Part shown: positions 43,936-46,228 of the stretch, one piece after another
How the letters are laid out: the number at the start of each line of letters is the position of its first letter
Position numbering within the stretch: the stretch's first letter is position 1
Virus record (IMG/VR): IMGVR_UViG_3300027971_000028
Location: 69,337-133,336 of that record
Length of the DNA stretch: 64,000 nucleotides
Origin: a virus
Strand: one strand, 5' to 3'
The notes under the pieces: model-generated
Told to the model about the DNA's origin: nothing
The model's input: only the letters and a program-made list of their open reading frames with translations
Database searches by the model: none
Translations under genes and position numbers: made by a program

Positions 43936-44091
43936 CTACAGTTCTTTTACAAGTTTGGCAATATATGCAATAACCTCGGAAGGACGCCAAGAACTATCAA
44001 CTTCAAGTTCTGCTATTTGAACAGCCAGTGCTTTCTTATCTACATGATTATCAAAACAGCCCCAGCCGTATTTAGGCTCTAATTCATTCAT
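43936..44091 (-). CDS. Small hypothetical protein (51 aa)
   Basis: MNELEPKYGWGCFDNHVDKK...; ATGA overlap with the upstream stop. Confidence 0.55.
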   Translation of the reverse strand: MNELEPKYGWGCFDNHVDKKALAVQIAELEVDSSWRPSEVIAYIAKLVKEL

Positions 44092-44636
44092 AATCTTTTT
44101 CCTATCCACTCAACTACATTTGCTGTAACCGCGTTTCCCATTTGTTTATACCTAGCCGAATCTGATTGATCCCCAGTCCAATCATCTGGAAATCCTTGTA
44201 ATCTCTCGCACTCCTTAGGAGTAAGTCTTCTGACTGTTGTTGAGAAACTAACTGCTTGATGTGAAATTGTGTCAACGGTATATGCAGGAGCACCAGCCTG
44301 TGCTACTCCTAGCCCGTTTTGTTTTTTATCAAGTTCTCTAGCATCTTGAATTGGTGTAACTGATACAGCGTGAGCAGAGGATGTGTCTACAGTAAACATT
44401 GGATCTTCCACTTCACCATATCCTTTCCCTTGAGGACCAGCAGTATCTGCTCTACCAATTACAGTGTTTTGAATAGAGTGAACAATTGTTACTACTGCTC
44501 TAGAGTCTCCGCTGTTATCAAAAGCATTCAAGGTAGGACAAATAACTTTCTCACGCCAAACTTCTGGTGGCAATGTTCCATCTTCATACCTTGCACCACT
44601 TCTAATTACTTTGACGAACCACGATGTCTGTAACAT
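44088..44636 (-). CDS. C5 DNA methyltransferase C-terminal subunit 1 (TRD-like region + terminal motifs)
   Basis: VRRLTPKECERLQGFPDDWT..RYKQMGNAV; repeated P(M/A)(F/Y)TVDT TRD-like blocks. Confidence 0.8.
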   Translation of the reverse strand: MLQTSWFVKVIRSGARYEDGTLPPEVWREKVICPTLNAFDNSGDSRAVVTIVHSIQNTVIGRADTAGPQGKGYGEVEDPMFTVDTSSAHAVSVTPIQDARELDKKQNGLGVAQAGAPAYTVDTISHQAVSFSTTVRRLTPKECERLQGFPDDWTGDQSDSARYKQMGNAVTANVVEWIGKRL

Positions 44637-45330
44637 CTTTATAGTCCCTCGCTTTCAAAGTAGATGAAACAGTATCTACTTCGTAATCTCCGAAGCCTCG
44701 CATCCTTGCAACAGTGCTTTTTCCAGCGCTGGTGGAAGAGTTTTTCCGCGACGAGTTGCTCGACGCATTATTCCTTCGCATGCTTTCGGACTCAATAAGT
44801 ATCGGGGACTTACTTCTGTCTCTAGTACTTCCAACAATGAAGACTCGACGGCGTCGTTGGGGGACTCCGAAGAATTGCGAATCCAAAACTCGCCATTCGA
44901 TGTGGCTATACCCTGAGTTGGCCATTTCAGAGATGACGACTCCAAAATCGCGTCCTTCGTTGCTTGATAAAAGTCCTGGCACATTTTCCAAGACGATAGT
45001 GTGTGCTTTGACTTCTTGCGCAAATCGTATTGCGTCCCAGAAGAGTCCACTTCTTGCCCCAGCGATACCAGCACGCTTTCCAGCGACGCTAACATCTTGG
45101 CACGGGAATCCTCCGCAGACAATGTCAACTTTTCCAATTAAGTTAATCTCCTTTGCCCACTCGATGGCGGTCTTAACATCATCATGTAATGGGATGTCAG
45201 GCCAATGTTTTTTTAATATCTTCTGAGCATTCTTATCTATTTCTACTTGACCAACGCATGTATGTCCTGCTTTTTCAAAGCCAAGATCAAAACCACCAAC
45301 GCCAGCAAATAAAGAAACAAATGTGCTCAC
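44602..45330 (-). CDS. C5 DNA methyltransferase catalytic subunit (motifs I-VIII only)
   Basis: FAGVGG, GGFPCQD, LENV, QRRRRVF; lacks GNAV. Confidence 0.9.
   Translation of the reverse strand: MSTFVSLFAGVGGFDLGFEKAGHTCVGQVEIDKNAQKILKKHWPDIPLHDDVKTAIEWAKEINLIGKVDIVCGGFPCQDVSVAGKRAGIAGARSGLFWDAIRFAQEVKAHTIVLENVPGLLSSNEGRDFGVVISEMANSGYSHIEWRVLDSQFFGVPQRRRRVFIVGSTRDRSKSPILIESESMRRNNASSNSSRKNSSTSAGKSTVARMRGFGDYEVDTVSSTLKARDYKDVTDIVVRQSN
44676..45137 (-). CDS. Alternative-frame MTase beta polypeptide (M.EcoHK31I-beta-like), nested in the catalytic gene
   Basis: SSLLEVLE..RYLLSPKACEGIMRRATRRGKTLPPALEKAL; same strand, different frame. Confidence 0.7.
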   Translation of the reverse strand: MEKLTLSAEDSRAKMLASLESVLVSLGQEVDSSGTQYDLRKKSKHTLSSWKMCQDFYQATKDAILESSSLKWPTQGIATSNGEFWIRNSSESPNDAVESSLLEVLETEVSPRYLLSPKACEGIMRRATRRGKTLPPALEKALLQGCEASEITK

Positions 45331-45608
45331 AAGCGACTACCTAACCATGTTGCAACATTTACAGTTACAGCATTACCTAGTTGTTTATACCTATGCGTAT
45401 CCGCTTCGGTACTAGTCCATCCTAAAGGAAACCCCTGCAGAGTCTCGCACTCTTCAGGGGTGATTCTTCTAATATTTTCTCTAGCAACCATGGACATATT
45501 TAACCCACCAGTTCCCATAAAACTGGTGAGCGTATTTATCGTATCTCCTTGAATCCTAAAGCCATCTGACCTGTGAGGATGAAAAACAATTACCTCTTCT
45601 TGGCTCAA
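45327..45608 (-). CDS. C5 DNA methyltransferase C-terminal subunit 2
   Basis: IRRITPEECETLQGFP.GWT..RYKQLGNAV; GTGA-coupled to the catalytic gene. Confidence 0.8.
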   Translation of the reverse strand: MSQEEVIVFHPHRSDGFRIQGDTINTLTSFMGTGGLNMSMVARENIRRITPEECETLQGFPLGWTSTEADTHRYKQLGNAVTVNVATWLGSRL

Positions 45609-46228
45609 GACTGCAAGACGTATCTGTTTTTATCTAAGATTGGTTGGTAGCAAACGCTCTTTCCATCATGATTAGTTATGTAGCCATATCTAGCCATACG
45701 AAAACGTAGAGCACTTGGAGAGACACCTAAGCGCTTACCTAAGTGACGAACACTTACACCTTCAACGGTAATAGCATGGTTAATCAACTTAGTGTATTGC
45801 TCTGCCTCTTTACGGAAATTAGGAGAGTGTGAGCGTACCTTTTGAGCAATAGGCTTAAGTTCTAACAACTTAGATAGAGTTTTTTCTGAAGGCTCGGTTA
45901 GAACTTTAGGTTGCTTAACCGCTTTCATAGGAAGTTCTGGAACATAGAAGTCAACAGAGATCTTAGAAGAACTTAAATGTTTGTAATGTCCTTCAACAAT
46001 TTGTCGAACTCTTTCTCTAGTAGTGATGCCTGATGCGTCCGCAATACTTTGAAGACTCCAGAAGGCTGATCTTAACTTTTTAATATAGGCGTTGCGAAGT
46101 TCTAAGTCATCACCTATCTTTTTAAAATTCTTATATACCTCTTGTGGCAATTTTGCATTGGTCTTTGTATATCCTTTAGGGGTCTTCATCTTTACTACCT
46201 TTTCTCTCTCGTTTGTCATTAGATGCAA
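45605..46228 (-). CDS. HTH DNA-binding protein
   Basis: WSLQSIADASGITTRERVRQI and SVRHLGKRLGVSPSAL. Confidence 0.7.
   Translation of the reverse strand: MHLMTNEREKVVKMKTPKGYTKTNAKLPQEVYKNFKKIGDDLELRNAYIKKLRSAFWSLQSIADASGITTRERVRQIVEGHYKHLSSSKISVDFYVPELPMKAVKQPKVLTEPSEKTLSKLLELKPIAQKVRSHSPNFRKEAEQYTKLINHAITVEGVSVRHLGKRLGVSPSALRFRMARYGYITNHDGKSVCYQPILDKNRYVLQS

What the first reader, a model, noticed from the sequence alone, without database searches (positions are those of the whole stretch)
44088..45608. Four-part split C5 methyltransferase: one catalytic subunit, a nested alternative-frame beta chain, and two alternative C-terminal subunits
Seen: the catalytic ORF (motifs I-VIII) lacks the terminal GNAV motif. 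Two separate ORFs, one upstream (93 aa) and one downstream (182 aa), each supply RR.TP.ECE.LQGFP..WT..RYKQ.GNAV with different TRD-like N-parts. A 153-aa same-strand overlapping ORF carries the LSPKACEGI.RRA.RRGK.LP motif. Known: M.AquI is split into two chains and M.EcoHK31I has a beta chain in an alternative frame. Inference: swappable specificity subunits give one core several target sequences, as anti-restriction. The 35-nt overlap at 44602-44636 could instead be a frameshift junction (its own GAGGGA RBS is present).
Basis: partly seen in the sequence, partly recalled or inferred. Interest (0 to 1): 0.75.

Follow-up and report, generated by a model that had tools for sequence, protein, structure and literature searches.

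The report
Four-part split phage cytosine methyltransferase
A freshwater phage encodes its DNA cytosine methyltransferase as four selected genes (a catalytic piece, a hidden gene nested in it one base out of step, and two different DNA-recognition end pieces), so one catalytic core may be able to mark two sets of DNA sites.

Summary
ORF2 carries motifs I-VIII. ORF1 (93 aa) and ORF3 (182 aa) each carry motifs IX-X. A 153-codon +1 ORF lies wholly inside ORF2.

None of this is decay or an assembly error.
- The same split recurs in relatives with the C-half in the +1, 0 or +2 frame.
- An independent DNA assembly spans it without indels.
- Against an 88.5%-identical relative, dN/dS is 0.14 for ORF1 and 0.08 for ORF3.
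- The nested frame is open in all 41 relatives examined (29-96% identity).
- Main-frame dS falls five-fold inside the overlap.

The nested protein's C-terminal ~55 residues resemble the segment that follows motif VIII in one-piece enzymes such as Dcm. That segment is absent from this clade's main frame. A complex model places the nested protein between ORF2 and ORF3 (ipSAE 0.83, best control 0.13).

ORF1 and ORF3 carry different short recognition cassettes. Relatives string the same cassettes in one chain.

Best reading: an alpha/beta/gamma enzyme with two alternative gamma subunits. Activity and target sequences are untested.

This scan has already reported the nested gene on other DNA (232 notes). 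What is new here is its combination with an AquI-like split and two gamma genes.

The parts
44602..45330 (-). alpha: catalytic subunit. Motifs I-VIII plus the first part of the variable region (..MRGFGDYE..TLKARDYKD..). GTG start.
   Evidence: PF00145 positions 2-181, E 6e-56. TIGR00675 positions 1-163. hhalign of the family profile to E. coli Dcm gives E 4.5e-30. dN/dS 0.12 against L009.
44676..45137 (-). beta: nested +1-frame gene, 153 codons, TTG start. Its conserved C-terminal ~55 residues (..SLLEVLE..RYLLSPKACEGIMRRATRRGKTLP..) overlap the unconserved linker of alpha.
   Evidence: The frame is open in 41 of 41 relatives. Shuffle test. dS is 0.098 in the overlap against 0.49 outside it. 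Nested residues 101-153 have dN/dS 0.13, while the main frame over the same stretch has 0.71. 76 sequence hits and at least 2397 profile hits of ~150 aa. phrog_16143 E 4e-8.
45148..45153 (-). AAGGAG Shine-Dalgarno-like site, 10 nt upstream of the nested TTG start.
   Evidence: Read from the sequence. A start codon with an SD-like site lies 26-53 nt upstream of motif IV in most of the 25 relatives checked.
44088..44636 (-). gamma-1: C-terminal subunit. N-segment (..CPTLNAFDNSGD..), recognition cassettes B and C, motifs IX-X.
   Evidence: PF00145 positions 252-321, E 4.5e-15. dN/dS 0.08 against L009. Cassette alignment.
45327..45608 (-). gamma-2: short C-terminal subunit. Cassette A (..VFHPHRSDGFRIQGDTINTLTSFMGTGGLN..) joined directly to motifs IX-X, with no N-segment. 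TTG start.
   Evidence: PF00145 positions 269-320, E 1e-12. dN/dS 0.14 with dS 0.39 against L009. Conserved upstream of alpha in L009, L010, L011 and L030. In L068-L073 the same cassette A plus IX-X forms the core of the only gamma gene.
44602..44636 (-). 35-nt overlap between the end of alpha and the start of gamma-1. GAGGGA lies at 44650-44645.
   Evidence: The overlap is unchanged in L009. Contigs from X3 (DNA) and X15/X16 (RNA libraries) cross it with no indel.
45327..45330 (-). GTGA: the gamma-2 stop overlaps the alpha start, a signature of translational coupling.
   Evidence: Read from the sequence. The upstream 207-aa HTH gene ends in TTGA, which overlaps the gamma-2 start in the same way.

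Best explanation
The locus encodes one DNA cytosine-5 methyltransferase assembled from separate polypeptides.

- Alpha (ORF2) provides AdoMet binding and catalysis (motifs I-VIII) and the first stretch of the variable region.
- Beta (the nested +1 gene) is translated from its own start inside alpha. Its C-terminal helices supply in trans the segment that follows motif VIII in one-piece enzymes. It is predicted to bridge alpha and gamma.
- Gamma supplies the remaining recognition cassettes plus motifs IX-X, which complete the fold.

Two gamma genes compete for the single alpha/beta core. ORF3 carries cassettes B and C. ORF1 carries cassette A. Because the motif X helix can be provided only once per core, the phage most likely makes two enzyme forms with different target sequences. 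This would protect its DNA against more host restriction systems, and the locus has no partner nuclease.

Shown: the gene structure, the selection on all four ORFs, the conservation of the split, and the cassette modularity.

Inferred: subunit assembly (a model only), the alternative use of the two gammas, the difference in specificity, and the anti-restriction role.
For: Split is real:
- The break after ..ARDYKD.TD.V.. recurs across the SLFAGVGGFDL clade, with the C-half in the +1, 0 (after a stop) or +2 frame.
- An independent DNA contig (X3) covers 44293-45645 with no indel.

All parts are selected, window against L009 at 88.5% nt identity:
- ORF1 dN/dS 0.14, ORF3 0.08, ORF2 0.12.

Beta is a gene:
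- The +1 frame is open for 148-235 codons in 41 of 41 loci, while the +2 frame reaches only 9-101 codons.
- Synonymous shuffles give a mean of 2-7.6 stops.
- Codon identity at identical residues is 0.53 in the overlap against 0.38-0.39 outside it, with column-permutation p < 1/5000.
- dS is 0.098 inside the overlap against 0.49 outside it.
- In L007 the conserved motif of beta lies beyond alpha's stop codon.
- SD-like sites plus start codons are conserved.

Role of beta:
- Among 10 outgroup genes classifiable this way, the 7 one-piece enzymes have ..L.DILE..KY.LS.. in the main frame and a +1 ORF of only 18-58 codons.
- The 3 outgroup genes with a 141-149-codon +1 ORF have that motif only in the +1 frame.
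- hhalign of the beta profile places beta residues 101-131 on exactly that segment of one-piece enzymes (single comparison, E 7e-4, probability 26%), and on Dcm 292-338 (E 0.08).
- The main-frame profile aligns to Dcm on both sides of that segment but not over it.

Complex model of ORF2 + ORF3 + nested:
- ipSAE 0.83, best of 3 controls 0.13. This mark was reached by 58 of 80 solved complexes and 2 of 110 mismatched pairs.
- Runs agree in at least 74% of contacts, and the partner's pLDDT is at least 73.
- Beta 74-78 pairs with alpha 143-148. Beta 105-113 touches gamma motif IX (136-142).

Two gammas:
- Cassette A plus IX-X is the core of the sole gamma in L068-L073.
- L074, L076, L078 and L026 string A, B and further cassettes in one chain.
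- L007 independently carries both a gamma with the N-segment and one starting at cassette A.
- Start and stop codons overlap (GTGA, TTGA).
- There is only one catalytic domain in the 133-kb genome.
Against: - No activity, methylome or protein data exist.
- ORF1 lacks the ~45-residue N-segment that every sole gamma has. In the model that segment touches beta, so ORF1 may bind poorly or act differently.
- The homology of beta to the post-VIII segment rests on weak profile scores (probability 26%) plus a complementary distribution in only 10 classifiable outgroup genes.
- Part of beta's sequence (around SESPNDAVESS) is dictated by motif VIII in the main frame.
- The complex score is a model's own confidence, obtained with my own alignments and three chains, which differs from the calibration.
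- The RNA-library contigs cannot prove transcription.
- The cassettes are much shorter than classic TRDs and have no detectable similarity to those of phi3T.
Confidence: 0.55

Rival explanations
1. Only alpha + beta + ORF3 forms the enzyme. ORF1 is a truncated duplicate of a gamma gene. It is retained either as a regulator, for example a competitor that titrates the core, or for a use unrelated to target choice.
For: ORF1 has no N-segment and only one cassette. In the complex model the N-segment of ORF3 contacts beta. The two-gamma layout is confined to the window's close relatives and L007.
Against: dN/dS is 0.14 with dS 0.39. Its stop is coupled to the alpha start. Motifs IX-X are intact. 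Cassette A plus IX-X is the working core of the only gamma in L068-L073. L007 also keeps a second gamma that starts at cassette A.
Confidence: 0.25
2. The nested product is real but is not an enzyme subunit. It could be a regulator of methyltransferase expression or timing, or have some other phage function, and is merely housed in this gene.
For: On its own it is mostly disordered: mean pLDDT 60, with only residues 101-150 confident. It has no Pfam or NCBIfam family and no fold match. Many single-chain relatives that have their own motifs IX-X still keep it.
Against: It is strictly linked to this methyltransferase clade over 29-96% identity. It has a complementary distribution with the main-frame post-VIII segment. 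It is fused in frame to the ..MRGFGDYE..ARDYKD.. part of the enzyme in L032, P0077 and P0078. The complex model scores 0.83 against a best control of 0.13.
Confidence: 0.1
3. The pieces are artefacts or decay. On this view the ORF2/ORF3 break is an assembly indel or a programmed +1 frameshift site, and the +1 ORF is a by-product of the conserved main-frame motifs.
For: ORF3 lies +1 to ORF2 with a 35-nt overlap. Metagenomes contain frameshift-fused forms such as P0030, P0057, P0058 and P0062. Part of beta's sequence is forced by motifs IV and VIII.
Against: The same break is present in L009 despite a dS of ~0.4, and in distant relatives in all three frame relations. DNA and RNA-library contigs from other studies show no indel. 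There is no slippery site at the junction. Beta's best-conserved part overlaps the least-conserved part of alpha, and in L007 it overlaps nothing.
Confidence: 0.03

Closest known systems
M.AquI (Agmenellum quadruplicatum), a two-subunit C5 methyltransferase
   Same: [quoted passage not shown] ORF2 with ORF3 (or with ORF1) is divided in the same way.
   Different: This locus has two alternative small subunits and a third, nested chain. Sequence relatedness to M.AquI could not be tested because no sequence was on hand.
M.EcoHK31I (E. coli HK31, YGGCCR), alpha with a beta chain nested in another frame
   Same: A second polypeptide is encoded wholly inside the catalytic gene in another reading frame. 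In M.EcoHK31I that chain is needed for activity, and its N-terminal part is partly dispensable (PMC2836561). Here too the N-terminal ~70 residues of beta are unconstrained and disordered.
   Different: M.EcoHK31I beta is reported to carry motif IX, while its alpha keeps the TRD and motif X. Here motifs IX and X are on the gamma chains and beta carries the post-VIII segment. A different +1 arrangement seen in Paenibacillus phage Hobie fits the EcoHK31I description better: the main frame has I-VIII and X, and the +1 ORF has motif IX.
Multispecific Bacillus phage C5 methyltransferases (SPR, phi3T, rho11s, H2)
   Same: These are orphan phage enzymes with several short recognition modules in tandem between motifs VIII and IX. 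Relatives of this locus string cassettes A, B and others in one gamma chain.
   Different: In the window the cassettes are divided between two separate exchangeable subunits rather than held in one chain. The cassettes show no sequence similarity to phi3T. Target sequences are unknown.
Naturally circularly permuted C5 methyltransferases (M.BssHII type; PMC5944983)
   Same: The gene order ORF1 (IX-X) before ORF2 (I-VIII) mimics the permuted motif order.
   Different: ORF1 and ORF2 are separate ORFs in different frames with an overlapping stop and start, not one polypeptide.

Membership tests
C5 cytosine DNA methyltransferase (PF00145 / TIGR00675) | Motifs I (F.G.GG), IV (PCQ with the catalytic Cys), VI (ENV) and VIII (Q.R.R) | tested here: met
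   ORF2 has FAGVGG, GFPCQ, ENVPG and QRRRR. PF00145 E 6e-56; TIGR00675 E 1e-54.
C5 cytosine DNA methyltransferase (PF00145 / TIGR00675) | Motifs IX (R.LTP.E..RLQGFP) and X (GNAV) | tested here: met
   Both motifs are present on ORF1 and on ORF3 and absent from ORF2.
M.AquI-type split C5 methyltransferase | [quoted passage not shown] | tested here: met
   The break lies after ..TLKARDYKD.. and is conserved in relatives in three frame relations.
M.AquI-type split C5 methyltransferase | Both subunits are required and sufficient for methylation | not testable with these tools
   This needs expression and a methylation assay.
M.EcoHK31I-type alpha/beta enzyme | Beta is encoded entirely within the alpha gene in another reading frame | tested here: met
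   Beta at 45137-44676 lies inside ORF2 at 45330-44602, offset +1.
M.EcoHK31I-type alpha/beta enzyme | Beta carries motif IX; alpha carries the TRD and motif X but lacks IX (PMC2836561, PMC3404938) | tested here: not met
   Motifs IX and X are on ORF1 and ORF3. Beta aligns to the post-VIII segment of one-piece enzymes.
M.EcoHK31I-type alpha/beta enzyme | Sequence homology to M.EcoHK31I beta | not testable with these tools
   No M.EcoHK31I sequence could be obtained, and the 1995 paper is not held.
Nested +1 gene of phage C5 methyltransferases (phrog_16143) | A ~150-aa +1 ORF from upstream of motif IV to ~180 nt past motif VIII, ending in ..LS.KA..GILRRA..RGK.LP.. | tested here: met
   phrog_16143 E 4e-8. 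76 sequence hits and at least 2397 profile hits. Present in 41 of 41 loci.
Multispecific phage C5 methyltransferases | Several independent recognition modules in tandem between motifs VIII and IX | tested here: inconclusive
   Cassettes are gained and lost between near-identical gammas (L068, L074, L076, L078), but no link between a module and a target is known.
Circularly permuted C5 methyltransferases (type H) | Motifs IX-X precede I-VIII in one polypeptide | tested here: not met
   ORF1 and ORF2 are in different frames and are joined only by an overlapping GTGA stop/start.

The most novel reading that the evidence does not exclude
This is a subunit-swapping C5 methyltransferase. One catalytic alpha chain, held together by an overprinted beta 'hinge' chain, pairs with either of two exchangeable gamma specificity subunits built from shuffled mini-cassettes. 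That would give a phage multispecific methylation by mixing subunits, much as Type I systems swap HsdS, rather than by tandem TRDs in one chain.
Probability: 0.4. Interest if true: 0.75.

Novelty: new variant of a known kind. Interest (0 to 1): 0.6.

Why it matters
C5 methyltransferases are textbook single-chain enzymes, and only two natural heteromers are regularly cited. This locus combines both known exceptions (an AquI-like split and a nested second chain) and adds a second specificity subunit.

If the two gamma chains give different targets, phages would have a cheap way to widen or change methylation specificity, either by swapping a ~100-200-codon gene or by shuffling ~35-residue cassettes. 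That would also offer a natural scaffold for engineered split methyltransferases.

The locus also provides a clean case for the nested gene: its conserved domain lies over the unconstrained linker of the host gene. The nested gene is rarely annotated in deposited phage records: of the records examined here, only phage pST lists it beside the main gene.

Tried and rejected
- Foldseek of the beta model against the PDB gave no match with E <= 0.001.
- A profile search of beta against PDB sequences gave only a chance hit at E 1.6.
- The ESM Atlas returned only unnamed viral clusters.
- Pfam and NCBIfam have no family for beta.
- A search for longer proteins found only two fused forms, P0077 and P0078.
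- The Lee et al. 1995 paper and the supplements of PMC2836561 are not held, so M.EcoHK31I beta could not be compared.
- Literature searches for an overlapping gene in phage C5 methyltransferases found nothing beyond M.EcoHK31I.
- L008 looked like a one-piece close relative, but it is a scaffold with a run of N.
- The 207-aa HTH gene upstream is linked only in the window's close relatives, so it is not part of the module.
- The phi3T enzyme shares only the catalytic domain.
- RNA-library contigs (X15, X16) cover parts of the locus, but contigs cannot show transcription, strand or ends. Stretches without cover mean nothing.
- A low-depth X15 contig joining 45394 to 44175 (depth 2.8, ~30-nt sides) is probably a chimera between the two similar IX-X regions.
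- P0058 differs from ORF2 by a longer C run at the motif VIII codons. It is either a null variant or a sequencing error and was not pursued.
Full report
**Source.** The window is the last 64 kb of a 133,336-bp IMG/VR virus record judged complete. Near-identical DNA occurs in freshwater and lake metagenomes from many studies.

**Anatomy.** Five translationally coupled genes lie on the minus strand:
- a 207-aa HTH protein (46228-45605);
- ORF1 (45608-45327, 93 aa);
- ORF2 (45330-44602, 242 aa);
- ORF3 (44636-44088, 182 aa);
- a 57-aa ORF.

ORF2 matches PF00145 positions 2-181 (E 6e-56) and has motifs I, IV, VI and VIII. ORF1 and ORF3 match only the last ~55-70 positions, which are motifs IX-X. 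A 153-codon ORF (45137-44676) lies inside ORF2 in the +1 frame. These are the only PF00145 matches in the genome. I recognised no restriction endonuclease beside them, but the flanking genes were not systematically screened.

**The split is real.**
- L009 and L010 are 88.5% identical in DNA and keep the same four ORFs with the same lengths.
- Across the SLFAGVGGFDL clade the catalytic ORF ends shortly after a conserved ..ARDYKD.TD.V.. motif. The C-half follows in the +1 frame, in the +2 frame, or in the same frame after a stop codon. That excludes both a programmed frameshift and an assembly indel.
- A contig from an independent 2013 metagenome (X3) covers 44293-45645 with 20 substitutions and no indel. 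RNA-library contigs from two further studies cross the ORF2/ORF3 junction without an indel.
- The division is the one described for M.AquI: motifs I-VIII plus part of the variable region on one chain, the rest plus IX-X on the other (PMC3404938).

**All four ORFs are under selection.** Window against L009:

| Region | dN/dS | dS |
|---|---|---|
| ORF1 | 0.14 | 0.39 |
| ORF3 | 0.08 | 0.39 |
| ORF2 codons 1-64 (before the nested ORF) | 0.04 | 0.49 |
| ORF2 codons 65-218 (the overlap) | 0.23 | 0.098 |
| ORF2 codons 166-218 (main frame, linker) | 0.71 | 0.084 |
| Nested codons 101-153 (same stretch) | 0.13 | 0.20 |

Inside the overlap the main-frame dS is five-fold lower. After motif VIII the constraint changes frames: the main frame is nearly neutral while the nested frame is under purifying selection.

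**The nested gene is a family feature.**
- In all 41 loci that carry a catalytic homologue (29-96% identity), the +1 frame is open for 148-235 codons. These include mycobacteriophage Lucky2013 (an Omegavirus) and virus Rctr41k. The ORF runs from 26-197 nt upstream of motif IV to about 140-210 nt past motif VIII; in L032 it runs 400 nt past. The +2 frame reaches only 11-85 codons.
- Synonymous-codon shuffles of the main frame put a mean of 2-7.6 stops in that interval.
- Codon identity at identical residues is 0.53 in the overlap and 0.38-0.39 on either side, with column-permutation p below 1/5000.
- Most relatives have a start codon with an SD-like site 26-53 nt upstream of motif IV. In the window this is AAGGAG, 10 nt before the TTG.
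- In L007 the catalytic ORF stops before the nested ORF's ..LSVKAAEGIIRRAERRGKTLP.. motif, so there the motif is conserved without any overlap.
- A profile search finds at least 2397 clusters of ~150-aa unnamed proteins.
- tblastn places the family inside annotated methyltransferase genes of 112 phage records and 514 plasmid records, including P1-type dmt. In the three phage records checked against the annotated CDS, the match lies at +1.
- This scan has noted the same nested gene many times on other DNA (232 notes). That part is not new to the scan.

**What the nested protein is.**
- On its own it folds poorly, with mean pLDDT 60. Residues 1-70 are disordered and residues 101-150 form confident helices.
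In E. coli Dcm, Cronobacter phage leB, phi3T, BCP8-2 and Javan117, motif VIII is followed in the main frame by ..FP..L.DILE..KY.LS... Those genes have +1 ORFs of only 18-58 codons.
- Streptococcus phages pST and IPP29 and Caulobacter phage C1 lack that segment in the main frame. They carry it (..SLSDILEE..KYFLS..) in a 141-149-codon +1 ORF.
- hhalign of the nested profile gives a single hit on exactly that segment: beta 101-131 against leB 181-210 (E 7e-4, probability 26%), and beta 82-129 against Dcm 292-338 (E 0.08).
- The main-frame profile aligns to Dcm from motif I to motif X. It includes ..MRGFGDYE..TLKARDYKD.. against ..RGNGFGYG..TLSARYYKDG.., but has only a gapped, dissimilar linker over Dcm ~296-340.
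- In L032, P0077 and P0078 the nested frame runs on in frame into the ..MRGFGDYE..ARDYKD.. segment, which restores the one-piece order.
- I therefore read beta as the post-VIII segment supplied in trans. Its N-terminal half is an overprinted, weakly constrained leader.
- This differs from the published description of M.EcoHK31I, where beta carries motif IX (PMC2836561). Here motif IX is on the gamma chains, so the window works like M.EcoHK31I but does not meet that defining feature.

**Predicted assembly.** A three-chain model of ORF2, ORF3 and the nested protein scored ipSAE 0.83, against 0.13 for the best of three controls. That mark was reached by 58 of 80 solved complexes and 2 of 110 mismatched pairs. 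The runs agree in at least 74% of contacts, and the partner's pLDDT is at least 73. Beta 74-78 pairs as a strand with alpha 143-148, the motif VII strand. Beta 56-72 lies on the helix after motif VI. Beta 96-145 touches gamma's N-segment and motif IX (136-142). No such complex has been solved, to my knowledge. This is a model's own confidence, obtained with my own alignments, and not a demonstration of binding.

**The two gamma chains.** Alignment of C-halves shows a common plan: an N-segment (..W.VK.RRA..E.W..PTLN.FDN.GD..), a variable string of ~35-residue cassettes that each contain a T-[LVI] pair, and then motifs IX-X.

| Locus | Gamma content |
|---|---|
| L068, L070, L071, L073 | N-segment + cassette A (sole gamma) |
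| L074 | N-segment + A + B |
| L076, L078, L026 | N-segment + A + B + further cassettes |
| Window ORF3 | N-segment + B + C |
| Window ORF1 | A only, no N-segment |
| L007 | one gamma with the N-segment, plus a second starting at cassette A |

Because ORF1's cassette plus IX-X is the working core of the only gamma in several phages, ORF1 is unlikely to be junk. Its missing N-segment, which touches beta in the model, is the main reason for caution. Each catalytic core can accept only one motif X helix, so the two gammas must alternate. Different cassettes imply different targets, as in the multispecific Bacillus phage enzymes, but this step is inference.

**Verdict.** The EcoHK31I analogy holds for gene layout but not for motif content. 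The locus is a new variant that combines known kinds: an AquI-type split, a nested second chain, and modular recognition cassettes now divided between two subunit genes.

Noticed in passing
window 44181-44184 (inside ORF3, between ..LQGFPDD and WT..): One contig in the independent metagenome X3 matches both sides of this point but has 653 other letters in place of 2. That is a net in-frame gain of 651 nt, or 217 codons. It could be an extra gamma cassette or gene gained by recombination at the repeated IX-X sequence, or an intein-like insert.
   Followed up: no
L055, L057, L060, L062, L054 (mycobacteriophages KittenMittens and Bipolar, Paenibacillus phage Hobie, Nodularia phage, Arthrobacter phage Linus): A second kind of +1 arrangement. 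A long +1 ORF starts inside the catalytic ORF and carries WPTP-type repeats plus a motif IX-like ..GFP.GW.. segment. In Hobie the main frame keeps motif X while the +1 ORF has motif IX, which is the layout reported for M.EcoHK31I. In Bipolar only the +1 ORF is annotated as the methyltransferase.
   Followed up: partly
L052 (Streptococcus phage pST, MH375600.1) 1646-2065: In this record the nested +1 ORF is annotated as a separate CDS named 'methyltransferase' inside the 'DNA cytosine methyltransferase' CDS. It is the only deposited record seen here that lists both.
   Followed up: no
L032 1384-2088; P0077, P0078: The nested frame continues without a stop into the ..ARMRGFGDYE..ARDYKD.. segment, which belongs to the catalytic chain in the window. 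The boundary between beta and the variable region therefore moves between relatives.
   Followed up: partly
window 44865-44869 (run of five C in the GVPQ codons of motif VIII); P0058: A near-identical metagenome protein (P0058) switches from the ORF2 frame to the nested frame exactly at this C run, reading ..FFGVPPNDAVESS... This is either a homopolymer length variant or a sequencing error. Three other metagenome proteins switch frames at other places.
   Followed up: no
window 45605-46228 (-): A 207-aa protein with weak HTH matches (HTH_50, E 2e-4). Its stop overlaps the ORF1 start (TTGA). It is conserved only in the window's close relatives, not with the methyltransferase module in general.
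   Followed up: partly
alpha tails of L068, L070, L071, L073: The variable tail of the catalytic chain also differs in cassette content between relatives, for example ..TLTATSYKRPEDNVVV.. and ..GTLRANGGDLGGGSETL.. in place of ..TLKARDYKD... Recognition modules may therefore be shuffled on alpha as well as on gamma.
   Followed up: no
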